Below are positions 37,091-58,624 of a DNA stretch of 64,000 nt, one piece after another. Location: NCBI GenBank assembly GCA_013816485.1, contig JACDEI010000010.1, forward strand, positions 54,854-118,853, given 5' to 3'. The notes under the pieces were generated by a model, which saw nothing but the letters and a program-made list of their open reading frames with translations, was not told the origin of the DNA and did not search any database. The DNA is from Planctomycetota bacterium (lineage in GTDB: Bacteria; Planctomycetota; UBA11346). The translations under genes were made by a program, and so were the position numbers. How positions within the stretch are numbered: the stretch's first letter is position 1; the number at the start of each line of letters is the position of its first letter.

Positions 37091-37822
37091 GTGCGTTACG
37101 CATTCCTCGGTGACATCCACGGCAATACCGAAGCACTCGACGTGGTGCTTGCTGCCATCCGTTCGGAGAAGGTCGACAAGATTGTCTGCCTCGGTGACAT
37201 CGTCGGCTACGGTGCCGAACCGGCCAAATGCCTGGAGGCCATCCGCGCGCTCAACTGCGATGTGATCGCGGGCAACCACGACTGGGCGGCGGTGGGCAAA
37301 GTCTCGATCGACTGCTTCAACGCCTACGCCAAGGCCGCGGCGATCTGGACGCGTGAACAGCTCACCGACGAACAGAAACAGTGGATCATCAATCTGCCGC
37401 TGACGCTGACCTACCCGGATTGCGCGGTGGCGCATGGCACCTTCCACCAGCCGGAAGCCTTCAACTACATTCAGACGGTGTTCGACGCGCAGCAGAGCTT
37501 CGAGTCGCTCAAGCGCATGGGAGCCAAGCTCGGCTTCCTCGGCCATAGCCACGTGCCGGTCGGCTTCTTCGACACGGATCCGATCACCTACACACTTGAT
37601 GGCGAGATCCCGGTCGACGAAGACATCTCGATCATGGTCAACGCCGGCAGTGTCGGTCAGCCGCGCGATGAGAACAACAAGGCGAGCTTCGCGCTGTACG
37701 ACAACGAAGCCAAGACCGTGCAGATTCGCCGTGTGGAGTACGACATCGATGCCGCGGCGAACAAGATCCGCGAAGTCGGGCTGCCAGAAATCTTGGCCGC
37801 GCGTCTGTATCAGGGGAAATGA
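37091..37822 (+). CDS. Metallophosphoesterase (calcineurin-like phosphoesterase).
   Basis: MRYAFLGDIHGN, CLGDIVGYG, GNHD, GHSHVP motifs. Confidence 0.8.
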   Translation: MRYAFLGDIHGNTEALDVVLAAIRSEKVDKIVCLGDIVGYGAEPAKCLEAIRALNCDVIAGNHDWAAVGKVSIDCFNAYAKAAAIWTREQLTDEQKQWIINLPLTLTYPDCAVAHGTFHQPEAFNYIQTVFDAQQSFESLKRMGAKLGFLGHSHVPVGFFDTDPITYTLDGEIPVDEDISIMVNAGSVGQPRDENNKASFALYDNEAKTVQIRRVEYDIDAAANKIREVGLPEILAARLYQGK

Positions 37823-37832
37823 AGGGCACGTT

Positions 37833-37972
37833 CCGGAGTCCGGAGTCCGGAGTCCGGAGTCTTGTGGATTCCGACCAATGCGTCTGCGTCCGTGCGCGTG
37901 ACGTCGTGGTTATCTGCTCGGCGGTGGCGTTGGACCTCGGGACCCCGGATCCCGGACCCCGGACCCCGGACT
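37833..37972. repeat. GTCCGGR-type tandem-heptamer inverted-repeat element: (CCGGAGT)x4, a 78-nt spacer, then (GACCCCG)x4. It lies between the metallophosphoesterase stop and the trpF start.
   Basis: Left arm tccggagtccggagtccggagtccggagtc. Spacer begins cttgtggattccgaccaatg. Right arm gggaccccggatcccggaccccggaccccggac. The arms pair perfectly with G-U wobble on the bottom-strand transcript. Confidence 0.8.
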
Positions 37973-37979
37973 GGTTGCC

Positions 37980-38588
37980 ATGAAGATCAAGTTCTGCGGT
38001 TTCACCCGTGATGAAGACGTGCGTGCCGCCATCGAGCTCGGCGTCGACGCCATCGGCCTCAATCTCGCGCGCGGACCACGCAAGATCAGCGTCGAACGTG
38101 CCGCGGAGCTGGCGCGCCTGATTCCGCCCTTCGTCACCGCGGTGGCACTGTTCGTCGATGCCGATGACCTGGACATCCTCGAAGCGATGCGCGTAACGCG
38201 CTGCACTGCGGTGCAGTTGCACGGCAACGAACCGCCGGAATTGGCGGCACGCCTGCGCACGCGCTTCCCGGTGATCAAGGCCTTCGCGGTGAAGGACGCG
38301 GCGGCGCTCAGTGCGGTGCGCGGCTATCCGGCGGACGCGTACCTGCTGGATGCGGCGGTACCGGGTGTGGCTGGCGGTAGTGGAGTCGCCTGGGACCACC
38401 ACCTACTCGCCGGTGTGGCCTTCGACCGTCCGGTGATCCTCGCCGGTGGCCTGAGTCCAACGACCGTGGGGTCGGCGGTCGCCGCGACGAAGCCTTACGG
38501 GGTCGATGTGGCCAGTGGCATCGAATCCGCTCCGGCGATCAAAGATCCAGCGTTGATGCGCGCATTCGTCGCTGCCTGTCGGCGATAG
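37980..38588 (+). CDS. trpF: Phosphoribosylanthranilate isomerase.
   Basis: MKIKFCGFTRDEDVRAAIELGVDAIGLN...ILAGGLSPTTV. Confidence 0.85.
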   Translation: MKIKFCGFTRDEDVRAAIELGVDAIGLNLARGPRKISVERAAELARLIPPFVTAVALFVDADDLDILEAMRVTRCTAVQLHGNEPPELAARLRTRFPVIKAFAVKDAAALSAVRGYPADAYLLDAAVPGVAGGSGVAWDHHLLAGVAFDRPVILAGGLSPTTVGSAVAATKPYGVDVASGIESAPAIKDPALMRAFVAACRR

Positions 38589-41421: not shown

Positions 41422-42252
41422 TTATTCCGGCGTCAGGTCGCGTGCCACCTGGCGCAGGGTCCGCAGGGTATCCTGGAGCAGGTCGGGCAGTTCCCCGAGG
41501 ACCATGGCGATGGCTGGGCGTTTGCCCGCGCGCAGCAGGTTTTCCAGCAGCACGCAGCGGTGGGCCAAACGTTGTGCGCCGATGATCTGACAGGAACCCT
41601 TCAGCTTGTGCGTGGCGCGTAACAACGCCTCGTCATCGGGCGCTCGCCCGCATGCGAGTACGGCCTGGAGGTGTCGCGGCGCCTCGCTGAGGAAGATCTG
41701 CACCATCTCGCCGCAGATGGCGTCGTCCCCGAGTTCCACCCGCAACCGCGCGAGCACCTGCGGATCGATCACGGTCTCTTGTGCGGGCGAGCCGACCAGC
41801 ACGACGCTGGTGATCGGGGTCGGTGATGGACCAGCGATCACAGGCAGGAAACGCGCGAGGGCATCGCTCAGCGCCTCGACCTGCACCGGCTTGGCGAGCA
41901 GGTCGTCCATGCCTGCGGTGTGGCAGCGTTCACGGTCGTCGGCGCTGACGTCGTTGCCCAGCGCCACCACTGGCAGGCGTGCGAGCTGGTGCACCGCTTC
42001 ACGCGCGCGCAGGTCACGGGTGGCCTGATAACCGTCGCGGTGCGGCAGGTAGCAGCACATCAGCACCAGATCATAGGCCTGGGTGGCGATGGCGGCGAGC
42101 GCAGCCTGGCCGTCGCCGACCCCATCCGCACCCAGGCCCAGACGCGCGAGATGGGCGGTGGTCAGGCGGCGGTGCATCACATCGTCATCCGCCACCAGGA
42201 TGCGACCGCTGAAGTAGCGAGCCGGCTGCCGTGGCGGTGATCCACCAATCAC
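41422..42252 (-). CDS. Response-regulator receiver domain fused to an Hpt phosphotransfer domain.
   Basis: REC: RILVADDDVMHRRL...DLVLMCCYLPHRDGYQATRDLR (phospho-Asp in the DLVLMC region). Hpt: LRATHKLKGSCQIIGAQRL (H-x-x-K-G). Confidence 0.75.
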   Translation of the reverse strand: MIGGSPPRQPARYFSGRILVADDDVMHRRLTTAHLARLGLGADGVGDGQAALAAIATQAYDLVLMCCYLPHRDGYQATRDLRAREAVHQLARLPVVALGNDVSADDRERCHTAGMDDLLAKPVQVEALSDALARFLPVIAGPSPTPITSVVLVGSPAQETVIDPQVLARLRVELGDDAICGEMVQIFLSEAPRHLQAVLACGRAPDDEALLRATHKLKGSCQIIGAQRLAHRCVLLENLLRAGKRPAIAMVLGELPDLLQDTLRTLRQVARDLTPE

Positions 42253-42830
42253 GGCTGTTTCACCAGGGATGCGGCCGGGATGTTCGCCGGCAGCGCGATG
42301 TACATGTGCCGCACGCCCCAGCGCCGAGCTTCGCTGTGGGTGATGAAACGCAGGTCGAAGTGTACGACACCGTTTTTGGCGCTCTGACGCATCGCTCCAC
42401 CGGTGTCGTCGACCATCGCCGTGCCGTAGCCGGGCACATCGACCATCAGGCGATAAGGAACGAGCTTGGGTTCGACCGCGATGCCGTAGGGGAACTTGGT
42501 CACGTCACGATTGATGGATGTGCGCCCATCCGAGAACAGGCCGCAGCAGATGGCGCATGGGCAGTAGGCGGTGGTCTTCACCTGCACCCAGCGCAGACCA
42601 TTCGCCGGTTCGATCACCGGCTTGGGCAGGAACTTCTCCTCCACCGTTATGATGCGCAGATACCGCGTGCTGCCCCAGCCGATCAACAGGCCGATTCCCA
42701 GCGTGGTTGCGGTCAGGCGTAGCGCCGCGAACCAGCCGTGGCGGTCACCGAGGGCGGCGAACCACCACGCCAGGACACGTCTGGTACCCCTGGTCCATGG
42801 ACGCCAAGCGGATGCGGGCATGCGCTGCAT
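42249..42830 (-). CDS. 3D-domain (MltA C-terminal-like) protein with an N-terminal TM anchor. It overlaps REC-Hpt by 4 nt.
   Basis: VKTTAYCPCAICCG...VDVPGYGTAMVDDTGGAM (three conserved Asp). Confidence 0.6.
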   Translation of the reverse strand: MQRMPASAWRPWTRGTRRVLAWWFAALGDRHGWFAALRLTATTLGIGLLIGWGSTRYLRIITVEEKFLPKPVIEPANGLRWVQVKTTAYCPCAICCGLFSDGRTSINRDVTKFPYGIAVEPKLVPYRLMVDVPGYGTAMVDDTGGAMRQSAKNGVVHFDLRFITHSEARRWGVRHMYIALPANIPAASLVKQP

Positions 42831-42946: not shown

Positions 42947-43702
42947 ATGTCGGAATTCCTCGCTGCTGTGCTGGCCTTCCCCACCATCGCCTACAGCGTG
43001 CTGCTGGCCTTGGCAGTGTTGTATTGGTTGACCGTGATCATCGGTGCGCTCGACATTGATCTGTTCAGTCCCGAGGTCGGCGACGCAGGTGGCGACATGG
43101 CCACTGGTGGACACCACGGCCATGGCTTCCTGGAGTTTCTTTCGGTCGGGCGCGTGCCGGTGACTATCACGGCGTCGGTGTTCCTCTTCTTGGGGTGGTT
43201 TCTCTGCATGCTGGCCGAACTGCTGGTGCGAGCACCGTTGGCGTCGGTGGTCAGCGGGCCGGTGTTTTCACTCGCGCTGATCCCCGCGTCGATGATTCCG
43301 GCGGTGGTGATCACCGGATTGGTGGTCAGACCGCTGCGTCACCTGTTCAACCTGGTCAGCGAACACGGCGAGGCCGGCCTAGTCGGGCGTATGGTGCGCA
43401 TCTCCTCGCTGACTGTCGACCACCAATTCGGCACGGCGGTGTGCGACAACGCCGGCCCTGGGATCCTGATGAACGTCTTCTGCCGTCACGGTGTGCAGAT
43501 GAAACGCGATGACATGGCGGTGGTCGTGGAATTCGACGCCAGCAACAACCTCTACCTGGTCGCTCCGTTCAGCCACGTGCCGACCGACGTGGAAACAATC
43601 GTGACGGATAACGCCGGACTGCCGCCTGTCTCTTCGCCAGCGCAGGCTTCGACTCCGCCCCCGGCGGTTTCACTGGAAAGGCGGATGGAACCACCACAGT
43701 AG
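42947..43702 (+). CDS. NfeD/YqiJ-like membrane protein (three TM segments plus a C-terminal OB-fold-like domain). A flotillin partner is expected.
   Basis: MSEFLAAVLAFPTIAYSVLLALAVLYWLTVIIGALDIDLF...GRMVRISSLTVDHQFGTAVCDNAGPGILMNVFCRHGVQMKRDDMAVVVEF. A flotillin gene follows 49 nt downstream. Confidence 0.55.
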   Translation: MSEFLAAVLAFPTIAYSVLLALAVLYWLTVIIGALDIDLFSPEVGDAGGDMATGGHHGHGFLEFLSVGRVPVTITASVFLFLGWFLCMLAELLVRAPLASVVSGPVFSLALIPASMIPAVVITGLVVRPLRHLFNLVSEHGEAGLVGRMVRISSLTVDHQFGTAVCDNAGPGILMNVFCRHGVQMKRDDMAVVVEFDASNNLYLVAPFSHVPTDVETIVTDNAGLPPVSSPAQASTPPPAVSLERRMEPPQ

Positions 43703-43751: not shown

Positions 43752-45857
43752 TTGGCCATGGCGCAGGAAGTCATCACTACCACCACCGGACTGACCGGGA
43801 TTCAGACCCTGTGGGTCGTCGGCGGTGCCGCAGGCGGCATCCTGCTGATCGGGATCATCCTCTTCATCCGCGCCTACTTCCGTAAAGTCGATCAGGGCTT
43901 TGCCATGATCGTCAACACTTTGCGCAATGAACCACTGGTGACCTTCACCGGTGCGCTGGTGATCCCGATTATCCACCGCGTCGAGATCATGGACATCTCG
44001 CTCAAGACCATTGAGGTCGACCGCCAGGGGACAAATGGCCTGATCTGTGCCGATAACATCCGCGCCGACATCAAGGTGACGTTCTTCGTGCGCGTCAACA
44101 AGACCGCCGAGGATGTGCTCAAAGTCGCCGGTTCGGTCGGTGTCGTGCGTGCCAGCGACCGTCGGACCCTGGAAGAACTGTTCCAGGCGAAGTTCTCCGA
44201 AGCGCTGAAAACCGTTGGTAAAAAGATGAACTTCATCGACCTCTACAACGAGCGCGATCAGTTCAAAGAGCAGATCGTGCGCATCATCGGTCGTGACCTG
44301 AACGGTTATAGCCTGGAAGACGCGGCGATTGACTTCCTGGAACAGACTCCGCTCAAGCTGCTCGATCCCGACAACATCCTCGACTCCGAAGGCCGCAAAA
44401 AGATCATCGACTTGACCACCCAGCAGCGCGTGAAGGCCAACGAGATCCAGCGCGAAGGTGAGAAGGTCATCAAGAAGCAGGACGTCGAAGCACGCGAAGC
44501 GCTGCTTGCCCTGGAGCGCCAGCAGGCCGAGGCGGAAGCCAAGCAGCACCGTGAGATCGCCACCAACCGCGCACGTGAGCAGGCGGAAGAGGCCAAGGTC
44601 CAGTTCGAAGAACACAAACGCGCCGAAGAAGCGCGCCTGAGTGCTGAACAAGAGATCGGCATCCTGCGTGAAAATTCCCAGCGCGAGGTCGAAGTCGCCG
44701 GCAAGAACCGCGAAGGCGCCGTCGCCGTCGAGATGGAACGCATCGAGAAAAACCGTGCACTCGAAGCCATCAGCCGCGAACGCGCGGTCGAGCTGACCAC
44801 CATCGAGAAGGAGAAGGTCCTGGCGGTGGAACGCAAAAACATCGCCGAGGTCATTCGCGAACGCGTGATGGTGGAAAAGAAGGTCGCTGAAGAAGAGGAG
44901 CGCATCAAGGACGTGCGCGCCACCATGGAGGCCAACCGTCACAAGGACGTCGCCATCACCAAGGCGACCCAGGAAGCGGAGATGTCCCGCATCAAGGAAG
45001 TGAAGATGGCGGAGGCCTCCGAGCAGTCGGCGGTACACGCCGCGCGCGAGAAGATCGTCACCGCGGATGCGGAGCAGACCTCGGCGGAGAAACAGGCGAT
45101 CGCCTCCATGCGTCGTGCCGAAGGCCATCAGGCGGAAGCCGCCGCCGAAGGCCTGGCCCAGGCCAAGGTCAAGGAAGCCGACGCCGTGGCGGTCGAGAAG
45201 CAGGGCTTTGCCAAGGCCCGTGTCATGGAAGCCGAAGCTGAAGCGGCGAAGAAACGCGGCTTGGCCGAGGTCGAAGTCAAACAAGCGTCGGCGCAGGCGA
45301 TCGAACAGGTCGGCGAGGCGGAAGCCTCCGCGATCGAGAACCGCATGCTCGCTGAAGCCAAGGGCCTGACCGAGAAAGCCACCGCCATGGGCAAGCTGCA
45401 CGGCGAAACGCGCGAACACGAAGAGTTCCGCATGCGTCTGGAGAAGCACGTCGAGGTCGAGAAGGTACGCATCCAGGGCGACGTCTCGATGGCGGAACAA
45501 CGCGCGCATGTGCTCGCCGAATCGCTCAAGAACGCCAAGTTCGAGATCGTCGGCGGCGACGGCGCGTTCTTCGACCGCTTCGTCAACGCGGTTGGTGCCG
45601 GCAAAGCGATCGATGCCACGGTGGCCAACAGCAAGGTCATCCAGCAACTCGGACGCGAGTACCTGGAAGAAGGCCGCAGCCTGCCGGATGATCTCAAGGG
45701 CGTGCTCAGCAGCTTCGGCTCCAACGACCTGAAGAACCTCTCCATCGCGGGCGTGCTGCAGAAACTGATGGCGGGCAAGGATCCGGCGAAGGTCTCGGCG
45801 CTGCTCAAGCAGGCGGCGACGCTCGGGTTGATCGAGCCCGACGACGACAAGGCGTGA
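43752..45857 (+). CDS. Flotillin-family SPFH/band-7 protein (YqiK-like), 701 aa, with a very long coiled-coil tail.
   Basis: N-terminal TM segment. SPFH core VTFTGALVIPIIHRVEIMDISLKTIEVDRQG...IRADIKVTFFVRV. About 350 aa of EA-rich heptads follow, e.g. EAEAKQHREIATNRAREQAEEAKVQFEEHKRAEEA. Confidence 0.85.
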   Translation: MAMAQEVITTTTGLTGIQTLWVVGGAAGGILLIGIILFIRAYFRKVDQGFAMIVNTLRNEPLVTFTGALVIPIIHRVEIMDISLKTIEVDRQGTNGLICADNIRADIKVTFFVRVNKTAEDVLKVAGSVGVVRASDRRTLEELFQAKFSEALKTVGKKMNFIDLYNERDQFKEQIVRIIGRDLNGYSLEDAAIDFLEQTPLKLLDPDNILDSEGRKKIIDLTTQQRVKANEIQREGEKVIKKQDVEAREALLALERQQAEAEAKQHREIATNRAREQAEEAKVQFEEHKRAEEARLSAEQEIGILRENSQREVEVAGKNREGAVAVEMERIEKNRALEAISRERAVELTTIEKEKVLAVERKNIAEVIRERVMVEKKVAEEEERIKDVRATMEANRHKDVAITKATQEAEMSRIKEVKMAEASEQSAVHAAREKIVTADAEQTSAEKQAIASMRRAEGHQAEAAAEGLAQAKVKEADAVAVEKQGFAKARVMEAEAEAAKKRGLAEVEVKQASAQAIEQVGEAEASAIENRMLAEAKGLTEKATAMGKLHGETREHEEFRMRLEKHVEVEKVRIQGDVSMAEQRAHVLAESLKNAKFEIVGGDGAFFDRFVNAVGAGKAIDATVANSKVIQQLGREYLEEGRSLPDDLKGVLSSFGSNDLKNLSIAGVLQKLMAGKDPAKVSALLKQAATLGLIEPDDDKA

Positions 45858-45864
45858 GCGGCAC

Positions 45865-46000
45865 GTCCGGAGTCCGGGGTCCGGAGTCCGGAGTCTTGTG
45901 GACGCGAGCCACCTCACGACTGGTGACCAATCATGACGTCGATCACGCACGTTGACCTCAAGCGCAAGGGACCCCGGACCCCGGACCCCGGACCCCGGAC
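45865..46000. repeat. GTCCGGR-type tandem-heptamer inverted-repeat element between the flotillin stop and the giant AAA+ gene start.
   Basis: Left arm gtccggagtccggggtccggagtccggagtc. Spacer starts cttgtggacgcgagcc...gaccaat. Right arm gggaccccggaccccggaccccggaccccggac. The spacer 5' end (cttgtgga...gaccaat) is shared with the 37833 copy. Confidence 0.8.
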
Positions 46001-46023
46001 GCTGACCTATCGGCCATGGTCCC

Positions 46024-49000
46024 ATGGTTGACACGCCGCCCCTCAACGCCGCCTTGGACGCCGGCACCTACGAAGTCGTGCGCAAACGCCTCGACTCCGT
46101 CGCGGCAGAGCTTTTGACCGAGGTCAGCGGGCTCAACGAACGACGCTTGTCGGTATTCGGTGCCTCGGCCACCACGCTGCTGGCGACCGAACACCTGCGC
46201 ACTGATCACAACTGTGTTCCACGCGACATCGTCGCGGTCGGCGATCGTTTGATCCTGGGTTACCAGGTACACATGGGCCTCAAGTCGACCACCGGCGTGG
46301 GCGATGTGTTCATGGAGGTGCGCTACGGCGACAATACCTTCCATCCGGTCGAGCGTTCGCTTTTCACCGGCGCGGCGTTCGAAAAGGACTTCGCCGAGAT
46401 CTTCCAGTACTACAAGGATGCGCGGCTCCTCCAACTCAAGCGCACCGACACCCACGTGCTGGCGGCGTTCCAGACCGGGCAACGCATCAGCGACCTGCGG
46501 GTCATGCGCTGGGCGCTGTCGAAGGACCGCACGTCCTGCATCTATGTCGACAACCGTGGTGCACCGGACTTCGTGCTGCCGCCGAGTCACGATTTCACCT
46601 GGGTGCGCACCACGCGCGACAACCATGTCCAAGGGTCACACCCGCATGTGAATGTACTCGACACCGTGTTCGTCGAGAGCATCCACGGTGACGTCACCAT
46701 CAAGATCGAGAACAACACCACGACTGGCGCGGGCATCCTCAACGATCCGGTGAAGGACCCGCATCAAGGCATGGATGATGCGGAGATCAGTTACGCGGAT
46801 CTGGACACCGTCATCCTGCTGAAGGTCCGCCCCTACCGCGAAAACGAGTTCCGCTACTACGTCTACAACAAGTTGACGCACGAAGCGGTGCGCATCGACG
46901 CCATCGGCCAGAGTTGTCAGCAATTGCCCGAAGGCCACGGCTTCATCTTCCCAGGCGGCTACTACCTGGCCAACGGCGAGCACAAGATCTTCCCGCAGGA
47001 TTTCAGCGGCATGCAGTTCGTGCGCGCCCTGCGGGCGCCCAACGGTGAAGACCTAGCCTACATCTACCACGAAGAAAATGACGGCGTCTACGTCATCCTG
47101 CGCTATAACCTGATCACGCGCAGCGTCGATCAGCCGCAGGTGTGCAACGGCTACAGCCTGTTCGCCGACGGTCGCCTGGCGCTCTTCCGCGCCCAGCCGG
47201 AACCCACGCGTCTGCACGCCATGCAGGTGTGGCAGACCCCGTTCGCCTCCGACGAACACGTTGGTGCATCACCGGTGCGCGATTCACCGCTGGGACGCAT
47301 CGGCAACCGCGACCTGGTACGTGGCATCAGTGATCTGCGCAACCTCCATCGCCTGATCACCAACCAGAAGCCGACGCGCGAGGCCTACGCCGAACTGCTC
47401 AAGCAGGTGGTGCGCATCAGCGACAGCTACCATTGGCTCGGCGGCGCCGAGGCCGGCCGCCTGAGTACGCTCATCGGTCAGGTGAAGGACGGCGTCAACG
47501 CCGCCATCGGCGAATTCGAGAAGGTCCTGCAACTCACCGCCCAGGCGGCGAGCCACATCGCCGGTCTGGAGGCTGCGGCAAAGGAGCTGTTGCGCACCCA
47601 GGCCCTGGAGACCAAGGCCACCATCGATGACTACGTACGCCCGCTCACCGAGCTGCGGCGTCAGCGCGGTGCGGTCGAAAGCGCGCGCGGCATCCGTTAC
47701 GCCGATGGAACGCGGCTGGATGCGCTCGACCAACGCCTCGCCAGCGCGGCACAGGAACTCAGCGCGTCGGCGGTCGAATTCCTGATGCGTCCAGAGGCGC
47801 TCGATAGCTACCAGTCGGAATTGGCAGCCAGCGAAAACCTGGTGCCGACGATTGCCACCGTGGTCGATGGCAAGGCCCCACGCGAGCGCGTCGACACCCT
47901 TGCCGGTGGCCTCGATCTGTTGGTGGAGACCGTCAATGGGCTGGAGATTGCCGACGCCAATGCGCGCACGGCGATCCTGGAGCGCATCTCCGCGGTCTAC
48001 GCCGCGCTTAATCGTGTGCGCGCGTTGCTCGAAGCACGTCGCCGTGAACTCGGCGCAAAAGAGGGCAAGGCCGGCTTTGCCGCGCAGCTCAGCCTGTTGG
48101 CGCAGGCGGTGGGCAACGCCATCGCGCTCAGCGACACCCCAGAGAAGTGCGACGAATTCCTGGGCAAGCTCATGCTCCAGCTCGAAGAATTGGAAGGCCG
48201 CTTCGCCGAGGTCGACACCTTCGTCGCCGAGCTGACGACCAAACGTGAGGAGATCTACGAGAGCTTCAGTGCGCGCAAACAGGCGTTGATGGACGAGCGC
48301 CAACGTCGTGCGGATGGCCTGGGGAACGCCGCCGACCGCGTCATCGCCGGCATCGTCCGCCGCGCCAAGACCTTTGCTGTCCTCGACGAACTGAACGCCT
48401 ACTTCGCTAGCGATCCGATGGTGCTCAAGGCGCGTTCGGTGATCACCGAATTGCGCGCTCTGGGCGCGACGGTCAAAGCCGACGACGCCGAAGGCCGCAT
48501 CAAGGCTGCGCGCGAGGACGGCGTGCGTGCGCTGCGCGATCGCAGCGAACTCTACGACGGCGAAGCGATCAAACTCGGTCGGCATCGTTTCAGTGTGAAC
48601 ACCCAGACGCTCGATCTGACCATGCTACCACGCGCCGATGCCGAAGGCCGCACGGGCATGTGGTTCCACCTCACCGGTACCGACTACTTCGCGCCGGTGG
48701 AGGATGCGACCTTTGCCGCCACCAATGGCTTCTGGCAGCAGGAGATCGTAGCCGAGACGCCGCAGATCTACCGCGGCGAATACCTTGCGTGGCAGGTGCT
48801 GACCGCGGCGGAGGCCGGCACCAACGGCCTGTCGTCGGCCAAACTGAAAGAGGCCGCGCTCACACGTGAAGCGCTGATGACGGTGGTGCGCACCATCGCG
48901 GGTGAGTTCTACGACCACGGCTACGATCGCGGCATCCACGACCACGACGCGGCGCTCATCCTCGAAGCCGTGCTGCATCTACGTGAGACTTGCGGCCTGC

Positions 49001-51315
49001 TGCGCCATCCACCGGCGGTGCGTGCGCTGGGTATCATCGCTTGGAGCGCGTTGGCCAAGGACCCCCGCGCCCGTGCCTGGGAACGCCAATGCCGCGCCCT
49101 GCACGATCTGCGGCGTCACCACGGTGACACGCCGGCGGTGGTCGCGTTGGCGAAGGATCTGTCGGCGGCAGTGCAGTCGTTCGCAGAGAAGGTAGGCATC
49201 GAATCCGCCCACGCCGATGCGGCGGGTCGTTACCTGGTCGAGGAGCTTGGCGAGGAGCCGCGTACGCACCTGGTGAAAAGCGGCGCCGCGGCGGATCTGG
49301 AAAAGCACTTCCTCGATCACCTGCGTGTCCTCGGTGCCGTCGATGCGCTGCGCGACGATCTGCGCGCGTTGCATGACGATCCGGTGGCCGCGCTCCGTCT
49401 GGCGCGCGCGTGGCTCGACGCCTTCATCGCCAAACAGGCGCCAACCCAGGCAGACCTTGCACCGGAAATCGCCGCGTGGCTGGTGGTCGGTGACAATCTG
49501 CCCTGTGAAGTGGTCCATGCCCGCACGCAGGTCGACCTCGACGCGTTGCTCGGTCAGCATCCGCGCATCGCCGAACGCAAACTGACGCTGCACATCGACG
49601 AGTTCGAAGCGCGCTTGCACCACTTCGCCACCGCCGTCGTTCCGGCTTTCCGCAGCTACCAGGAAACCCGCCGCCGTCTGCTGGAACGCGAACGCACCAT
49701 GCTGCGCATCGACGAACTCAAACCGCGCGTGCTCACTAGCTTCGTGCGCAACAAGTTGGTGAACGAGGTCTACCTGCCGCTCATCGGCGACAACCTCGCC
49801 AAACAGATGGGTGCACTCGGCGCCAGCAGGCGCACCGACCTGATGGGTATGCTGCTGCTCATCAGTCCACCTGGGTACGGCAAGACCACGCTGATCGAAT
49901 ACGTCGCCGCGGTGCTCGGTCTCGCGTTCGTGAAGATCAACGGCCCCGCGCTCGGCCATGAGGTCACCTCGGTGGACCCCGGCGCCGCGCCCAACGCCGC
50001 CGCCCGCCAGGAACTGGAAAAGCTCAATCTCGCCCTGGAGATGGGCAACAACATCGTGCTGATGATCGACGACATCCAGCACACCAGCCCGGAACTGCTG
50101 CAGAAATTCATTTCGCTCTGCGATGGCAGTCGGCGTATGGAAGGCGTGTGGCGGGGACGTGCGCGCACCTACGACCTGCGTGGCAAGAAGGTCGTGGTGG
50201 TGATGGCGGGCAACCCGTACACCGAATCCGGTGAGCAGTTCAAGATCCCCGACATGCTCGCCAACCGCGCCGACACCTACAACCTCGGCGACATTCTTGG
50301 CGGCCACGGCGAGGCCTTCGCGCTCAGCTACATCGAAAACGCCCTCACGGCGAATCCCGTGCTCGCTACGCTCGCCGGCCGGCCACAGCACGATCTCTAC
50401 CGCCTGTTGCGCATCACCGAAGGCGATGACGCAGTGCGCAGCGAACTGGAACATCCGTACTCCGCGCTAGAGATCGGCGATGTCACCGCGGTGCTGAAGC
50501 ACCTCAAACGCGTGCAGCAGATCCTGGGTCAGGTGAACGCGACCTACATCGCCAGCGCCGCCACGTCGGACGCCTACCGCGTCGAGCCGCCGTTCAAACT
50601 CCAGGGTTCCTACCGCAACATGGCCAAGATCGCGGCCAAGGTCGTGCCGCTGATGACCAGTGATGAACTGGAACAGATCATCCGTGACCACTACGCCGGT
50701 GAATCGCAGACGCTCACCACCGGCGCGGAAGCCAACTTGCTCAAGTTCAAGGCCATGAGCGGTACGCATACGCCGACCGAAGCCGCGCGCTGGGCCGACA
50801 TCTGCAAGATCTACACCCGTCGCCAGGAGCTCTCCGGCGCGGACGATCCCGCATCGAAGGCGGTCGTGCAGTTGGCCAAGGTTTCGGATCAGCTCGGTGA
50901 ATTGCGCGCGGTGGTGCATGCGGCGGGCACCGCTGCTGCCAATGCTGCCACCGTCGCGCATGATCGCGGTGTCGACGAGCGACGGGCGCAGGCGAAACAC
51001 CTGGAGTCGCTCGTCGAACGTCTCGCCAGCGGATTGGAAGCGCTCAAGAACACGACGATGGCGGCCCCCACCGTCATCCCGGCGCCGAAGGTCGAGATCA
51101 TCAACACCCTGCCGAAGTACTACGCCAACCTCTACGCCCAGCAGATCCAGGTGATCGAGAAGACCCTGATCCCGGCGGTCGAAGCCATCGGCGCGGTGAT
51201 CGGTCAGACGCTCAATGCGCGCGAACACCTGGGTGGCATCGCCAACGAACTGCGAGCGTTGATGGCGAGACAGGCGAAGTCGGAAGTGATCGAAGGGCGT
51301 CCAGAAGCGGAATGA
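46024..51315 (+). CDS. Giant (1763-aa) multidomain protein. It has a ~480-aa beta-rich N-terminal region and a long helical or coiled-coil middle. A single AAA+ ATPase module sits at about residues 1270-1420, followed by a ~340-aa helical C-terminal region. Family not recognised.
   Basis: Walker A LLLISPPGYGKTTLIEYVA. Walker B NIVLMIDDIQHTSPELL. Sensor/Arg region VVVVMAGNPYTESGEQFKIPDMLANRADTYNLGD. The N-terminus has beta-strand-like YVYNKLTHEAVRIDAIGQSC and VYVILRYNLITRSV segments. Confidence 0.8.
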   Translation: MVDTPPLNAALDAGTYEVVRKRLDSVAAELLTEVSGLNERRLSVFGASATTLLATEHLRTDHNCVPRDIVAVGDRLILGYQVHMGLKSTTGVGDVFMEVRYGDNTFHPVERSLFTGAAFEKDFAEIFQYYKDARLLQLKRTDTHVLAAFQTGQRISDLRVMRWALSKDRTSCIYVDNRGAPDFVLPPSHDFTWVRTTRDNHVQGSHPHVNVLDTVFVESIHGDVTIKIENNTTTGAGILNDPVKDPHQGMDDAEISYADLDTVILLKVRPYRENEFRYYVYNKLTHEAVRIDAIGQSCQQLPEGHGFIFPGGYYLANGEHKIFPQDFSGMQFVRALRAPNGEDLAYIYHEENDGVYVILRYNLITRSVDQPQVCNGYSLFADGRLALFRAQPEPTRLHAMQVWQTPFASDEHVGASPVRDSPLGRIGNRDLVRGISDLRNLHRLITNQKPTREAYAELLKQVVRISDSYHWLGGAEAGRLSTLIGQVKDGVNAAIGEFEKVLQLTAQAASHIAGLEAAAKELLRTQALETKATIDDYVRPLTELRRQRGAVESARGIRYADGTRLDALDQRLASAAQELSASAVEFLMRPEALDSYQSELAASENLVPTIATVVDGKAPRERVDTLAGGLDLLVETVNGLEIADANARTAILERISAVYAALNRVRALLEARRRELGAKEGKAGFAAQLSLLAQAVGNAIALSDTPEKCDEFLGKLMLQLEELEGRFAEVDTFVAELTTKREEIYESFSARKQALMDERQRRADGLGNAADRVIAGIVRRAKTFAVLDELNAYFASDPMVLKARSVITELRALGATVKADDAEGRIKAAREDGVRALRDRSELYDGEAIKLGRHRFSVNTQTLDLTMLPRADAEGRTGMWFHLTGTDYFAPVEDATFAATNGFWQQEIVAETPQIYRGEYLAWQVLTAAEAGTNGLSSAKLKEAALTREALMTVVRTIAGEFYDHGYDRGIHDHDAALILEAVLHLRETCGLLRHPPAVRALGIIAWSALAKDPRARAWERQCRALHDLRRHHGDTPAVVALAKDLSAAVQSFAEKVGIESAHADAAGRYLVEELGEEPRTHLVKSGAAADLEKHFLDHLRVLGAVDALRDDLRALHDDPVAALRLARAWLDAFIAKQAPTQADLAPEIAAWLVVGDNLPCEVVHARTQVDLDALLGQHPRIAERKLTLHIDEFEARLHHFATAVVPAFRSYQETRRRLLERERTMLRIDELKPRVLTSFVRNKLVNEVYLPLIGDNLAKQMGALGASRRTDLMGMLLLISPPGYGKTTLIEYVAAVLGLAFVKINGPALGHEVTSVDPGAAPNAAARQELEKLNLALEMGNNIVLMIDDIQHTSPELLQKFISLCDGSRRMEGVWRGRARTYDLRGKKVVVVMAGNPYTESGEQFKIPDMLANRADTYNLGDILGGHGEAFALSYIENALTANPVLATLAGRPQHDLYRLLRITEGDDAVRSELEHPYSALEIGDVTAVLKHLKRVQQILGQVNATYIASAATSDAYRVEPPFKLQGSYRNMAKIAAKVVPLMTSDELEQIIRDHYAGESQTLTTGAEANLLKFKAMSGTHTPTEAARWADICKIYTRRQELSGADDPASKAVVQLAKVSDQLGELRAVVHAAGTAAANAATVAHDRGVDERRAQAKHLESLVERLASGLEALKNTTMAAPTVIPAPKVEIINTLPKYYANLYAQQIQVIEKTLIPAVEAIGAVIGQTLNAREHLGGIANELRALMARQAKSEVIEGRPEAE

Positions 51316-51349
51316 TGCGGATCGGGTGGGTGCCCGACCCGCACGGTGG

Positions 51350-52186
51350 TCATTCCCGCACGGTCACGGTGATGCCCGGACGGACGAGGGCGAAGACCAG
51401 CGCGATGTCCTCCTGCACCATCCGCACACAGCCGTGGCTGCCATTTTTCTCCAGCCACTGCGCCGGTTCCGCGCCGGTGAAGCCGTGGATGCCGATGCCC
51501 TTGAAGTGGTTGTCGGCGCGCGCTTCGAAGCCGATCCAGTAGCCGCCGAGGATATTCTCGGGATCGTCGGGTTTGAGGATCTTGCCGGTGTCGGGATTAC
51601 GCCATTCGGGATTACGCACGCATTGCCGCACGGTGGTGGCGCCGAGCGGTGTCGGCGAGCTATCGCGGCCCAAACCGCAGCGGAAAGCTCCGAGGAGCGT
51701 GGTGCCGCGCCAGATCATCAGGCGGTAGGCAGAGCGCGAGACCACCACTTCGAGCGGCACGCTGGCGAGATCGAGCACCGCGACCTGCTGACCGATCGAC
51801 AGCGCCTTGGGTTCGAGGCCAGGGTTCATGCGCTGGATCAGTTCGATGCTCGTGCGGTACCGCCGCGCGAGGATGCTCGGAGTCTCGCCCGCGGCGATGA
51901 TATGGGTGCGAACGCCGCAACGATCACGCAGGGGGAGGGCGTCGCTGAAGAGACGGCGACAGAACGGCGCCACGCGGTCGCCGAGGGCGATGGCCTCGGC
52001 CGGCGGCAAGGTCGGCAAGGTGGTGCTGACCAGTTCGATGAGCGGCACCACGGCGGCCGGATCAGTGCTGGCGTCGCTGAACTGCTGGTCGAGATCGGCG
52101 CCTTGCGCCAACGCGACGGTGGCGAGCACCAGCAGGCAGCTGGCCACGCGGATCGCCACTCCTCGCATGTCACGCGGGCGGATCAT
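51350..52186 (-). CDS. L,D-transpeptidase (YkuD domain) with a LysM domain and a signal peptide.
   Basis: LysM: IIAAGETPSILARRYRTSIELIQRMNPGLEPKALSIGQQVAVLD. Catalytic GIHGFTGAEPAQWLEKNGSHGCVRM. ATG at 52186 checked. Confidence 0.75.
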   Translation of the reverse strand: MIRPRDMRGVAIRVASCLLVLATVALAQGADLDQQFSDASTDPAAVVPLIELVSTTLPTLPPAEAIALGDRVAPFCRRLFSDALPLRDRCGVRTHIIAAGETPSILARRYRTSIELIQRMNPGLEPKALSIGQQVAVLDLASVPLEVVVSRSAYRLMIWRGTTLLGAFRCGLGRDSSPTPLGATTVRQCVRNPEWRNPDTGKILKPDDPENILGGYWIGFEARADNHFKGIGIHGFTGAEPAQWLEKNGSHGCVRMVQEDIALVFALVRPGITVTVRE

Positions 52187-52839
52187 CGTTTGCGCCGCAG
52201 GTCGTTGCCGTCCTTGCGCGTCTGTTTGGCCTGCTCCTGGTGGCTGTAACGTTCTTCGCCTGGGCCCCACGGATCGCCATGGTTGTGGTAGCCGTTCACT
52301 TCCCAGAAGCCGCGGCGGTCTTGCGTCAGTAGTTCGAAACCGTTGACCCACTTCGCGCCTTTCCACGCCCACAATTTCGGCACCACCACGCGTGCCGGGC
52401 CGCCGTGTTCGACATCCAGCGGTTCGCCATCGGCTTCGGTGACGACCAACGCATCGCTGTCGAGCACATCGGCGAGCGCGGTGTTGGTGGTGTAACCGCC
52501 GTAGCCGTGTTGCATGACGTGGGTGCACCCCGCGTTTGGCTTGGCCAACGCCAACAGATCACGCACACGGTAGCCGCCCCATACGAAGTCGTAACGCGAC
52601 CAAGTAGTGACGCAGTGCATGTCCGCTTGCACGCGCACGAACGGCAGTGCTTGGAGGCCAGCCCAATCGAGTTCGATGGGATTCGCACACGCGCCCCAGA
52701 TGCGCATGTGCCACTGCTCGGTGCTCACCTGTGGCGTTGGGCCGTAGGTCAGGACCGGCCACTTGGTGGTGTTGTATTGGCCGTCCGGCAGGCGTGGTTT
52801 ATCCGCTGGATGCGTCTGGATGCGTTCGACGTTGCTCAC
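52183..52839 (-). CDS. Sulfite-oxidase-family molybdopterin oxidoreductase, short YuiH-like form.
   Basis: HCVTTWSRYDFVWGGYRVRDLL...DGEPLDVEHGGPARVVVPKLWAWKGAKWVNGFEL. Confidence 0.65.
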   Translation of the reverse strand: MSNVERIQTHPADKPRLPDGQYNTTKWPVLTYGPTPQVSTEQWHMRIWGACANPIELDWAGLQALPFVRVQADMHCVTTWSRYDFVWGGYRVRDLLALAKPNAGCTHVMQHGYGGYTTNTALADVLDSDALVVTEADGEPLDVEHGGPARVVVPKLWAWKGAKWVNGFELLTQDRRGFWEVNGYHNHGDPWGPGEERYSHQEQAKQTRKDGNDLRRKR

Positions 52840-57170: not shown

Positions 57171-58112
57171 TCAGGCCCCGTCGGCGCTGAAGATGGCTTC
57201 GATGAAGGCGTCGGGATCGAATGGCTGCAGGTCTTCGATCTTTTCGCCTACGCCGATGAAGCGCACGGGCAGTTTCAGTTCACGGCGGATGGTGATGGTC
57301 ACTCCACCCTTGGCCGTGCCGTCGAGCTTGGTTAGCACCAGGCCAGTGACGCCCATGGCGGCGCCGAAGACTTTAGCCTGCTGGATGGCGTTCTGGCCAG
57401 CCGTGGCGTCGAGCACCAGCAGGGTTTCGTGCGGTGCCGCTGGCAGGCGCTTCTGGATGACGCGGCGGATCTTCTCCAGCTCGCGCATCAGGTGTTCTTT
57501 GTTGTGCAGACGACCAGCGGTGTCGATCAGCACCAGATCAGCGCCACGCGATTCCGCCGCCGCCACTGCATCGAAGGCCACCGCGGCAGCATCACCGCCA
57601 TCGTGGGTCTTGACGATGTCGACGCCGGCGCGCTCGGCCCAGATCGACAACTGTTCGATCGCTGCGGCGCGGTAGGTGTCGCCAGCGGCGATCAGGACGT
57701 TCTTGCCCTGATCCTTGAAGCGCTTCGCCAGCTTGGCGATGGTGGTGGTCTTGCCGGCACCGTTGACGCCGACGATCAGCACCACGGTCGGACCGCTCGG
57801 TGCCCACGCCAGTTCCTGCTCGACCGGTGCTTGCAGCTCAGCACGCAAGCTGCGCTTCAAGAGGTCGAGCAGCTCCTCGCCTGGGGCCATCTCGCCGGCT
57901 TTGTATTTCGCCTTCAGTTCGGCGATGATCTCTTCGGTCTTGGCCACCCCGATGTCGGCCTGCAGCAGCGTGTCCTCCAACTGGTCGAGGAACGGCTGAT
58001 CGATTTTGCGGCCAAGGCCGATGAGTTTGCGTAGAGCCCCACCGACGACCGAGCGAGTCTTGGCGAGACCTTCTTTGATCTTGGTGAAGAAACGGCCGAG
58101 GGCTTTGAACAT
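57171..58112 (-). CDS. ftsY: Signal-recognition-particle receptor FtsY (NG domains only).
   Basis: [55 protein letters not shown]. Confidence 0.9.
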
Positions 58113-58121
58113 GGCTTAACG

Positions 58122-58233
58122 CCCGGAGTCCGGGGTCCGGGGTCCGGAGTCGTGGCATACCGCCGCTGAGGTCATGCCTCCGTTATGGTGCGCGAGGAAG
58201 GACTCCGGACTCCGGACTCCGGACACCGGACGG
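58122..58233. repeat. GTCCGGR-type tandem-heptamer inverted-repeat element between the rsfS stop and the ftsY start.
   Basis: Left arm cccggagtccggggtccggggtccggagtc. Spacer cgtggcataccgccgctgaggtcatgcctccgttatggtgcgcgaggaag. Right arm gactccggactccggactccggacaccggacgg. Confidence 0.8.
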
Positions 58234-58234
58234 A

Positions 58235-58624
58235 TCATTCCGCGATCGCCTTGTCCGGATCGACCAGCGTCTTCAGTTCCTTGTCGTACGCGATCTGACG
58301 CGCGAGCGGCCAGAGGTGCTCGATGTCGTAGAGCGCGCGCTTCTCTTCGTCGAAGGCGTGCACGATCACGTCGATGCAGTCGACCAGCATCCAACCACTT
58401 TCGCCTTCGACCGGCATGCGCGGGACGTGGTGTTGTTTGCAGAACGAATAGATGCCCTGGACGATGGCATGCACATTGCGGTCGCTGCGACCGCTGACGA
58501 TGACGACGAAGTCGGCCACGCCGTTGCCTTTGGGCAGTTGCAGCAGACGCACGTCCTCGCCGCCCTTGTCGAGGGCCAGACGCACGGTGTGCAAAGCAAG
58601 ATCACGGCTCGAAAACGACGTCAT
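58235..58624 (-). CDS. rsfS: Ribosomal silencing factor RsfS (Iojap).
   Basis: DKGGEDVRLLQL...ADFVVIVSGRSDRNVHAIV...GESGWMLVDCIDVIVHAF. ATG at 58624 checked. Confidence 0.85.
   Translation of the reverse strand: MTSFSSRDLALHTVRLALDKGGEDVRLLQLPKGNGVADFVVIVSGRSDRNVHAIVQGIYSFCKQHHVPRMPVEGESGWMLVDCIDVIVHAFDEEKRALYDIEHLWPLARQIAYDKELKTLVDPDKAIAE

What the first reader, a model, noticed from the sequence alone, without database searches (positions are those of the whole stretch)
46024..51315. Unclassified 1763-aa protein with a single AAA+ module embedded between large uncharacterised domains
One ORF of 5.3 kb encodes a protein I cannot place in any family. It has about 480 aa of beta-rich N-terminal sequence with no motif I know. 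About 750 aa of helical sequence follows, including a long Ala/Leu/Glu/Arg-rich coiled-coil-like stretch. Around residue 1275 there is one clear AAA+ core: Walker A SPPGYGKTT, Walker B VLMIDDIQH, and a sensor/arginine region NPYTESGEQFKIPDMLANRADTYNLGD. A further ~340 aa of helical tail follows. Giant single-AAA proteins of this layout are not among the well-characterised AAA clades (Clp, MoxR, McrB, Lon, dynein/midasin). The gene is the last member of an operon-like array with an NfeD/YqiJ-like gene and a flotillin. That placement suggests a membrane-microdomain-associated ATP-driven machine.
Basis: partly seen in the sequence, partly recalled or inferred. Interest (0 to 1): 0.82.

Follow-up and report, generated by a model that had tools for sequence, protein, structure and literature searches.

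The report
Flotillin-linked giant propeller AAA+ ATPase
This 1763-residue gene is a real, intact member of a widespread but experimentally unstudied family of soluble ATPases that is almost always encoded right after its own flotillin and an NfeD/YqiJ-like membrane protein, an operon that comparative genomics had already noted in 2024.

Summary

It is not unplaceable:
- Residues 30-470 match Pfam DUF3686 end to end (E = 2e-178), and residues 591-675 match DUF7902.
- NCBI labels relatives 'DNA repair ATPase'; I found nothing that supports that name.
- AlphaFold2 models (pLDDT 86 and 84) show a beta-propeller, long helical arms, a small beta domain, a helical domain and one AAA+ module.

Homologues of the same length occur in at least 590 species across many phyla. 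In 80 of 81 informative loci, a dedicated ~670-700-residue flotillin lies directly upstream on the same strand (median gap 33 nt). An NfeD/YqiJ-like membrane protein precedes it. PspA, YjfI, rhomboid and an HKD phospholipase-D-like gene join the operon in a proteobacterial subset.

Ravi et al. [quoted passage not shown] I found no experimental work.

Most likely it is a ring-forming, ATP-driven remodeller of flotillin scaffolds or their clients at the inner membrane. That function is inferred, not shown. It is a new member of a known, uncharacterised kind, of moderate interest.

The parts
42947..43702 (+). NfeD/YqiJ-like membrane protein, first gene of the cassette. The ORF opens at 42707; the likely start is the ATG at 42947, giving 251 residues.
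   Evidence: Weak Pfam YqiJ_N match (E = 1e-3). Several hydrophobic segments, then a non-hydrophobic C-terminal part. tblastn finds a homologue in this position in most loci; the ORF cluster has members in 59 loci. Median gap to the flotillin gene is 30 nt.
43752..45857 (+). Dedicated long flotillin: N-terminal transmembrane segment, SPFH/Band_7 domain, long Glu/Ala/Lys-rich helical region. The likely start is the ATG at 43758.
   Evidence: Pfam Band_7, E = 6e-8. Transmembrane segment at residues 17-44. Directly upstream of the ATPase on the same strand in 79 clustered loci plus L008; 43-89% identical across phyla. Among plasmids, only the records that carry the ATPase have a flotillin at >=33% identity with >=84% coverage.
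45866..46003 (.). REP-like palindromic element in the flotillin-to-ATPase spacer. Not specific to the cassette.
   Evidence: Arms of 4-5 CCGGRGT heptamers and their reverse complement GGACCCC. The RNA fold is -94 kcal/mol, z = -6.4. Three copies lie in the window; 18 pattern matches against 1.3 expected.
46024..51315 (+). The DUF3686-DUF7902-AAA+ ATPase gene (1763 residues plus stop). Soluble: no transmembrane segment.
46171..47238 (+). Beta-propeller domain, residues 50-405, the core of Pfam DUF3686. An N-terminal helix (15-45) precedes it.
   Evidence: Pfam DUF3686 covers residues 30-470, E = 2e-178. The AlphaFold2 model has about 28 strands, with pLDDT mostly 85-93. Foldseek finds only generic 6-7-bladed propellers (KLHDC3 kelch, PON1, prolyl oligopeptidase, clathrin terminal domain) at E ~1e-5 and 8-12% identity. 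111 of 356 columns are >=90% conserved.
47251..48549 (+). Helical arm, residues 410-842: about 12 helices, three of them 49-58 residues long. Includes Pfam DUF7902 (residues 591-675, nt 47794-48048).
   Evidence: AlphaFold2 secondary structure. Pfam DUF7902, E = 9e-26. Ala/Leu/Arg/Glu-rich composition.
48556..48708 (+). Small beta domain, residues 845-895 (IKLGRHRFSVNTQ...).
   Evidence: Five strands in the model, pLDDT about 90. G852 and H854 are invariant and F856 nearly so.
48721..49809 (+). Helical domain plus a long linker helix leading into the ATPase, residues 900-1262.
   Evidence: AlphaFold2 model, pLDDT mostly above 90. The linker region (1191-1262) scores 0.73 for conservation.
49810..50298 (+). 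AAA+ alpha/beta core, residues 1263-1425. Walker A GYGKT (K1287); Walker B DD (D1349-D1350); pre-sensor-1 beta-hairpin 1371-1384; sensor 1 N1397; arginine finger R1415.
50299..50859 (+). Lid with extra helices (1429-1513) ahead of the probable sensor 2 (R1531, in QGSYRNM), then a conserved post-lid region to about residue 1612.
   Evidence: Model helices. R1519-K1535 is almost entirely invariant. The sensor-2 assignment is my inference from its position at the N-terminus of a lid helix.
50860..51312 (+). Variable Ala-rich helical C-terminal tail, residues 1613-1763.
   Evidence: Lowest conservation of any region (0.36, 3 of 151 columns >=90%). Low pLDDT, 36-75.

Best explanation
The gene encodes the soluble ATPase subunit of a three-gene, horizontally mobile membrane module: an NfeD/YqiJ-like membrane protein, a dedicated long flotillin, and this propeller-helical-AAA+ protein.

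Shown:
- The domain layout.
- A complete and invariant set of ATPase residues: Walker A Lys, Walker B Asp-Asp, sensor 1 Asn, arginine finger, probable sensor 2 Arg.
- An AAA+ fold of the pre-sensor-1-hairpin superclade, closest to MoxR/dynein/midasin and Clp-D2/RuvB.
- No transmembrane segment.
- Near-obligate operon linkage to its own flotillin subfamily.

Inferred:
- The flotillin and its NfeD-like partner build an SPFH cage or patch on the cytoplasmic face of the inner membrane, as solved SPFH complexes do.
- The ATPase assembles into a ring through its AAA+ module; the invariant arginine finger implies active sites shared between subunits.
- The ring reaches the scaffold with its propeller-tipped helical arms.
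- ATP hydrolysis is used to remodel the flotillin scaffold or proteins held in it, by assembling, disassembling or turning them over, as part of a membrane-stress or membrane-maintenance response.
- In some Proteobacteria the same module is wired to PspA/YjfI, rhomboid and an HKD phospholipase-D-like enzyme. This window carries the 'abbreviated' three-gene form.
For: Family and intactness:
- Pfam DUF3686, DUF7902 and AAA/AAA_5.
- More than 3277 homologous 90%-identity clusters; the 120 listed are nearly all full length with the same Pfam architecture.
- At least 590 confirmed genomic matches in the one-genome-per-species collection, spanning Planctomycetota, Myxococcota, Actinomycetota, Gamma- and Betaproteobacteria, Bacteroidota, Acidobacteriota and Verrucomicrobiota.

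Linkage:
- The flotillin is upstream on the same strand in 79 clustered loci plus L008 by tblastn. The only informative exception is L070.
- Median gaps are 33 nt and 30 nt.
- The partner flotillin is a dedicated subfamily. Of 309 plasmid records with any flotillin match, only 11 reach >=33% identity with >=84% coverage, and all 11 also carry the ATPase.
- Accessory genes are membrane-related: PspA_IM30 (13 loci), DUF2170/YjfI (9), rhomboid (8), PLDc_2 (9). On pQBR103 the triad follows a yjfIJKLMC-like cluster. In L001, PspA and a second AAA gene follow it.

ATPase competence and fold:
- Invariant catalytic residues. The core is the most conserved region.

Independent published prediction of a chaperone-like role in assembling membrane complexes: PMC11237479.
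Against: - Nothing here shows a physical interaction between the ATPase and the flotillin, ring formation, or ATP hydrolysis.
- Walker B is Asp-Asp rather than the usual Asp-Glu, in every homologue examined. Hydrolysis may therefore be slow or switch-like.
- No aromatic pore-loop-1 motif is present; the sequence there is GPALGHEVTSVDP. This weakens a classical polypeptide-threading mechanism.
- The two fold-comparison programs disagree on the nearest clade.
- Flotillin-NfeD pairs work without any such ATPase in E. coli and B. subtilis (PMC2636767), so the ATPase is not a general requirement of flotillins.
- Gene linkage cannot tell whether the target is the scaffold itself or a client protein.
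Confidence: 0.5

Rival explanations
1. The ATPase chiefly acts on PspA/IM30 (bacterial ESCRT-III) polymers, as Vps4 acts on ESCRT-III. The flotillin only recruits it to the membrane.
For: A PspA_IM30 gene sits directly upstream of the cassette in about 12 proteobacterial loci and directly downstream in L001. Ravi et al. frame the operon as PspA-associated and suggest the abbreviated operons work with PspA encoded elsewhere.
Against: PspA lies within 10 kb in only 13 of 84 loci and is absent from this 64-kb window. The flotillin is there in 80 of 81 informative loci. No MIT-like domain or other known ESCRT-III-binding domain was detected. In L001, PspA has its own separate classical AAA gene.
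Confidence: 0.15
2. It is a membrane-protein quality-control unfoldase or extractor that works inside or beside the SPFH cage. This would be functionally like FtsH within HflK/C but without a protease domain, passing substrates to other proteases such as rhomboid.
For: SPFH cages partner with AAA+ machines elsewhere, as in FtsH-HflK/C (papers listed). A rhomboid gene joins the cassette in 8 loci. Clp-D2, Lon and Skd3 are among the structural neighbours.
Against: There is no aromatic pore loop, no protease domain, and no membrane anchor. Rhomboid is present in only a minority of loci.
Confidence: 0.15
3. It is part of an anti-phage or other conflict system. The accessory module senses envelope damage and acts through the membrane, or through the HKD nuclease/phospholipase in some lineages.
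For: Distribution is patchy and does not track phylogeny: other Planctomycetota homologues are 42-43% identical, while Myxococcus and Streptosporangium homologues are 50%. It occurs on megaplasmids. Transposases or integrases lie nearby in L001 and L002. A toxin-antitoxin-like insertion sits inside the L062 cassette.
Against: No significant match to any of the 5027 PADLOC models; the best is E = 0.004, at the P-loop only. No homologue in 50,697 phage records. Flanking genes show no recurrent defence families. This window's neighbours are housekeeping-type genes. No effector is conserved across the family.
Confidence: 0.1
4. It is a DNA repair ATPase, as the Pfam description and NCBI product name say.
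For: The name is used by Pfam and NCBI. RuvB is the top Foldseek hit, and Pfam RuvB_N gives a weak P-loop match. An HKD (Nuc-like) gene is sometimes adjacent.
Confidence: 0.05

Closest known systems
'Beta-propeller + coiled-coil + AAA+ ATPase' of PspA/band-7 operons (Ravi et al. 2024, mSystems, PMC11237479)
   Same: The architecture is the same (N-terminal propeller, helical/coiled-coil region, C-terminal AAA+). [quoted passage not shown] The optional partners I found independently also match: CesT/Tir-like YjfI, PspA, HKD phospholipase D. This window carries what that paper calls the abbreviated operon.
   Different: Nothing material. The identification rests on matching architecture and gene context, not on a direct comparison with their example protein from Dokdonia, whose sequence I could not fetch. 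That paper gives no structure model, clade assignment or experiment.
MoxR-type AAA+ ATPases (CbbQ, NorQ, RavA) and the dynein/midasin AAA modules (Pfam AAA_5)
   Different: Identity is only 10-14%. No VWA/MIDAS partner gene is present. There is one module per chain, unlike dynein and midasin. About 1260 residues of propeller and helices lie N-terminal to the module. Walker B is DD. A hairpin-shaped helix-2 insert is not evident in the model.
HCLR-clade AAA+ modules (RuvB, ClpB/Skd3 D2, ClpA/ClpC D2, Lon)
FtsH-HflK/C and other SPFH-cage plus AAA+ pairings
   Same: An SPFH-family scaffold is genetically and, by inference, functionally coupled to an AAA+ machine at the inner membrane.
   Different: FtsH is a membrane-anchored classical-clade AAA protease enclosed by the cage. 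This protein is soluble, has no protease domain, belongs to a different AAA+ superclade, and pairs with a flotillin-type protein rather than an HflK/C-type one.
E. coli YqiJ-YqiK and B. subtilis YuaF-FloT (NfeD-flotillin pairs)
   Same: The first two genes of the cassette are of this type: a multi-transmembrane YqiJ/YuaF-like protein followed by a flotillin.
   Different: Those operons have no ATPase. E. coli plasmid flotillins match the flotillin here at only 29% identity over 55% of its length, so this one belongs to a separate, longer subfamily.
Vps4 with ESCRT-III, and PspA-linked AAA+ ATPases
   Same: The concept is shared: an AAA+ ring that remodels a membrane-bound polymer. PspA genes sit next to the cassette in a subset of loci.

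Membership tests
Pfam DUF3686 (PF12458) | Full-length match to the family model above the gathering score | tested here: met
   593.9 bits against a 25-bit cut-off, E = 2e-178; residues 30-470 cover model positions 2-448 of 448.
Pfam DUF7902 (PF25472) | Match above the gathering score | tested here: met
   90.4 bits against a 26-bit cut-off; residues 591-675 cover model positions 1-85 of 85.
AAA+ superfamily | Walker A GxxGxGK[ST], Walker B acidic pair, sensor 1 polar residue on beta-4, arginine finger, alpha/beta core plus helical lid | tested here: met
Flotillin/YqiJ/propeller-AAA+ operon of Ravi et al. 2024 | [quoted passage not shown] | tested here: met
   In the window: 42947-43702, 43752-45857 and 46024-51315, all on the + strand. 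Same order in 80 of 81 informative loci. Published description.
Pre-sensor-1 hairpin superclade of AAA+ (HCLR, helix-2-insert and pre-sensor-II-insert clades) | Beta-hairpin inserted between helix alpha-3 and strand beta-4 | tested here: met
   The model has two strands at residues 1371-1376 and 1379-1384, between the helices after Walker B and beta-4 (1390-1396), with pLDDT 85-93. This was read from the secondary-structure string, not from coordinates.
Pre-sensor-II-insert clade (MoxR, dynein, midasin, MCM) | Helix-2 insert, plus an extra helical insert before sensor 2 that repositions the lid | tested here: inconclusive
Classical AAA clade (Cdc48/p97, FtsH, Vps4, katanin) | Second region of homology with two arginines; no pre-sensor-1 hairpin; aromatic pore loop 1 | tested here: not met
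RuvB (Holliday junction branch-migration motor), the only support for the 'DNA repair ATPase' label | NCBIfam equivalog score above cut-off; RuvB domain III; RuvA partner | tested here: not met
   NF000868 scores 20.6 bits against 282; TIGR00635 scores 18.8 against 299. The match covers residues 1266-1312 only. No ruvA-like neighbour recurs.
Known anti-phage defence systems (PADLOC-DB v2) | Significant match to a defence-system protein model | tested here: not met
   Best hits are IetA (E = 0.004) and mad8 (E = 0.007), both over about 30 residues at the P-loop.

The most novel reading that the evidence does not exclude
The three-gene cassette is a self-contained, ATP-driven flotillin 'coat' machine. 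A MoxR/dynein-like AAA+ ring with six propeller-tipped helical arms grips the SPFH/flotillin cage and mechanically assembles, opens or strips it. That would make it the first dedicated energy-consuming remodeller known for a flotillin scaffold, and a bacterial counterpart of Vps4 with ESCRT-III or of clathrin uncoating.
Probability: 0.3. Interest if true: 0.75.

Novelty: new member of a known kind. Interest (0 to 1): 0.45.

Why it matters
What bacterial flotillins do mechanistically is still unsettled. Published deletion studies often show weak phenotypes (for example PMC13086221). A large ATPase that is encoded with its own flotillin subfamily in hundreds of species across many phyla gives an experimental handle. 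ATPase-dead mutants, partner pull-downs and structures could show what a flotillin scaffold is built or taken apart for.

The work also shows that the database name 'DNA repair ATPase' is probably misleading and should not be propagated.

The claim for this window is limited: it is one more member of a family already catalogued by Pfam and already noted in the literature.

Tried and rejected
- NCBIfam and PADLOC scans gave only P-loop-level noise.
- Sequence and profile searches of the PDB found nothing beyond the Walker A region.
- Literature searches for 'DUF3686', 'PF12458', and 'DNA repair ATPase' with 'flotillin' found no paper. A search on SPFH, AAA+, propeller and NfeD found no experimental study. 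The SPFH papers PMC13086221 and PMC2636767 and the Psp survey PMC9239133 do not mention this ATPase.
- No phage homologue. No Rfam family anywhere in the window. No sigma-70-like promoter, and no more terminator-like sites than chance, in 42-53 kb.
- No PspA gene in the window.
- The '+' ORF 51326-52249 as a fourth cassette gene: rejected. It has no Pfam match, its GC by codon position is non-coding, and it overlaps a real convergent YkuD/LysM gene.
- A clathrin or coat-like relationship (propeller followed by a helical leg): clathrin heavy chain appears among the Foldseek hits, but with TM-scores of 0.14-0.15 and rmsd of 25-37 A. I treat this as a superficial resemblance.
- Dynein heavy chains among the N-half Foldseek hits were discounted for the same reason (rmsd 39 A).
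- A fusion or assembly artefact: rejected on the conserved full-length architecture.
I repeated them with 42 maximally diverse rows.
Full report

Yes. ORF 46024..51315 on the + strand starts at ATG and reads through 1763 codons without a stop. GC by codon position is 0.69/0.43/0.81, the pattern expected of a real gene in this 64.6% GC window.

- SPPGYGKTT at residues 1281-1289
- VLMIDDIQH at 1345-1353
- NPYTESGEQFKIPDMLANRADTYNLGD at 1397-1423

The protein has no hydrophobic segment of transmembrane character. It is not a fusion artefact. The homology search found more than 3277 related clusters, and the 120 listed are nearly all 1650-1950 residues long with the same Pfam domain architecture. 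They include genes on contigs of several megabases and in complete genomes.

**2. What family is it?**

Residues 30-470 match Pfam DUF3686 (PF12458) from end to end at E = 2e-178. Residues 591-675 match DUF7902 at E = 9e-26. Residues 1277-1400 pass the cut-offs of both the AAA and the AAA_5 (dynein-related) models.

Pfam describes DUF3686 as 'ATPase involved in DNA repair', and NCBI labels relatives 'DNA repair ATPase'. I found nothing to support that name:
- NCBIfam has no model for the family, and its RuvB equivalogs score about 20 bits against cut-offs near 290.
- No DNA-binding domain is detected.
- No repair genes recur nearby.
- No paper in the searched library contains 'DUF3686', 'PF12458', or 'DNA repair ATPase' together with 'flotillin'.
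- No member of the family has a solved structure; sequence and profile searches of the PDB stop at the P-loop.

**3. Anatomy**

Two AlphaFold2 models were built with 42 diverse rows each. One covers residues 1-880 (mean pLDDT 86.1) and the other residues 840-1763 (mean pLDDT 84.1). They give this layout:

| Residues | Feature |
|---|---|
| 15-45 | N-terminal helix |
| 50-405 | Beta-propeller of about 28 strands |
| 422-842 | About twelve helices, three of them 49-58 residues long |
| 848-891 | Small beta domain |
| 917-1262 | Helical domain ending in a long linker helix |
| 1275-1420 | AAA+ alpha/beta core |
| 1429-1513 | Lid with extra helices |
| to about 1612 | Highly conserved segment |
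| 1613-1763 | Variable, low-confidence Ala-rich helical tail |

The propeller matches only generic 6-7-bladed propellers: kelch, paraoxonase, prolyl oligopeptidase and the clathrin terminal domain, at E ~1e-5 and about 10% identity.

Across 103 homologues the ATPase core is by far the most conserved part, with 104 of 163 columns at >=90%. The post-lid segment, the linker helix and the propeller follow. The tail is the least conserved.

**4. The ATPase module**

Walker A Lys1287, Walker B Asp1349-Asp1350, sensor 1 Asn1397 and Arg1415 are invariant. Arg1531, in the invariant QGSYRNM at the start of a lid helix, is the likely sensor 2; that assignment is my inference.

Two departures from the norm hold across the family:
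- Walker B is Asp-Asp rather than Asp-Glu.
- The pore-loop-1 position (GPALGHEVTSVDP) has no aromatic residue.

The model places a beta-hairpin at 1371-1384, between the helices that follow Walker B and strand beta-4. That is the pre-sensor-1 hairpin.

The two fold-comparison programs rank the neighbours differently:
- Foldseek ranks RuvB, Skd3/ClpB-D2, ClpC/ClpA-D2, Lon, MCM and CbbQ first, at E = 1.5e-5 to 2e-4 and 12-19% identity.

**5. Genomic context**

In the window the order is:
- NfeD/YqiJ-like membrane protein (likely start 42947, end 43702)
- Flotillin with an N-terminal transmembrane segment and a Band_7 domain (43752-45857)
- The ATPase

A convergent LysM + YkuD gene follows. The cassette is divergent from a 3D-domain gene and a response regulator with an Hpt domain.

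The 80 loci kept come from Planctomycetota, Myxococcota, Actinomycetota, Gamma- and Betaproteobacteria, Bacteroidota, Acidobacteriota, Verrucomicrobiota and one bin labelled Clostridia. The window is 84-85% identical to two Planctomycetota bins.

Across 83 loci, 79 have the flotillin gene clustered directly upstream on the same strand, and L008 has it by tblastn. Two loci lack upstream sequence. One (L070) has a different membrane protein in that position. The median gaps are 33 nt (flotillin to ATPase) and 30 nt (NfeD-like to flotillin).

The flotillin is a dedicated subfamily. Of 309 plasmid records with some flotillin match, only 11 reach >=33% identity with >=84% coverage, and all 11 carry the ATPase.

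Beyond the triad, the recurrent neighbours are:
- PspA/IM30 in 13 loci
- DUF2170/YjfI in 9
- Rhomboid in 8
- A PLDc_2 (HKD) protein in 9, usually immediately downstream

These are mostly in Proteobacteria. On plasmid pQBR103 the triad follows a yjfIJKLMC-like cluster. In L001 a PspA gene and a separate classical AAA gene follow it. This window has no PspA gene.

Sequence identity does not track taxonomy. Other Planctomycetota homologues are 42-43% identical, while Myxococcus and Streptosporangium homologues are 50%. The cassette also sits on megaplasmids. It is therefore horizontally mobile.

**6. Prior knowledge**

Ravi et al. 2024 (PMC11237479) describe an operon that combines:
- CesT/Tir-PspA
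[quoted passage not shown] - a YqiJ/YuaF-type 3TM protein
- an HKD phospholipase D in some Proteobacteria

They note that abbreviated operons without PspA are widespread. Their supplementary table lists the gene order for Dokdonia donghaensis. This matches what I found independently, so the family and its context are already on record, although only computationally. I found no experimental study.

**7. How it most likely works**

Shown: the architecture, the intact catalytic set, the fold class, solubility, and near-obligate linkage to a private flotillin and an NfeD-like protein.

Inferred:
- The flotillin and NfeD-like protein form an SPFH scaffold on the cytoplasmic face of the membrane.
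- The ATPase forms a ring through shared active sites, which the invariant arginine finger implies.
- The ring docks through its propeller-tipped arms.
- It uses ATP to remodel the scaffold or its clients during membrane stress or maintenance.

I put this at about 0.5. The rivals are:
- A PspA-directed, Vps4-like role (0.15)
- A membrane-protein unfoldase or extractor (0.15)
- A conflict or defence module (0.10)
- A true DNA-repair role (0.05)

The Asp-Asp Walker B and the missing aromatic pore loop argue for a slow, gripping or lever-type remodeller of the MoxR/dynein kind rather than a processive threading motor. This too is inference.

**8. Verdict**

The gene is a new member of a known, uncharacterised kind. 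Interest is moderate (0.45). The family is large, conserved and unexplored, and it could open up flotillin biology. However, this window adds nothing the family did not already offer, and the key inference was already published.

Noticed in passing
window 37820-37980, 45855-46010, 58110-58240: A dispersed REP-like palindromic element. Each copy has 4-5 tandem CCGGAGT/CCGGGGT heptamers, a variable 60-90-nt centre, then 4-5 GGACCCC heptamers (the reverse complement). There are 18 pattern matches against 1.3 expected. The copy in the flotillin-to-ATPase spacer folds at -94 kcal/mol (z = -6.4), so it could affect read-through into the ATPase gene.
   Followed up: partly
window 51326-52249 (+) and 51350-52528 (-): The 307-codon '+' ORF just after the ATPase gene is spurious: GC1 is 0.81 against GC3 0.69, and it has no Pfam match. 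The real gene is convergent on the minus strand and encodes a LysM + YkuD L,D-transpeptidase with the HGCVRM motif.
   Followed up: yes
window 41422-42830 (-): Divergent from the cassette lie a 3D-domain protein (42249-42830) and a response-regulator receiver + Hpt protein (41422-42252). I did not test whether they regulate the cassette; they are not conserved neighbours in other loci.
   Followed up: no
window 50056-50082 (residues 1345-1353), and all homologues: Walker B is Asp-Asp (IDDIQH) rather than the usual Asp-Glu in every homologue aligned. The pore-loop-1 position has no aromatic residue. Both features are family-wide and unexplained.
   Followed up: partly
L001 15453-18026: In a 50%-identical homologue's locus, a PspA/IM30 gene and a separate 588-residue classical AAA ATPase lie immediately downstream of the triad. 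That gives one operon two different AAA+ proteins.
   Followed up: partly
L083 (pQBR103, NC_009444.1 84443-105326): On the P. fluorescens SBW25 megaplasmid the triad directly follows a yjfI-pspA(yjfJ)-rhomboid-DUF2491-DUF350-DUF1190-glutathionylspermidine-synthase-like cluster. An MvaT/MvaU-type nucleoid protein gene follows the triad.
   Followed up: no
L062 6560-9950 and L066 3560-9920: Two loci have 3.4-kb and 6.4-kb insertions between the flotillin and ATPase genes. In L062 the insert looks, by eye, like a NYN/LabA-like protein plus a nucleotidyltransferase of toxin-antitoxin type. In L066 it carries secreted or outer-membrane-type proteins. None of these ORFs was scanned against a family library.
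   Followed up: no
L070 44-1330: This is the only informative locus without an upstream flotillin. A Bacteroidota bin has a different multi-transmembrane protein with a coiled-coil C-terminus directly before the ATPase gene.
   Followed up: no
CP029777.1 (Deinococcus actinosclerus plasmid) 335983-342876: Only residues 1120-1627 of the ATPase are matched here, while the partner flotillin is intact about 3.5 kb away. This may be a disrupted or pseudogenised copy.
   Followed up: no
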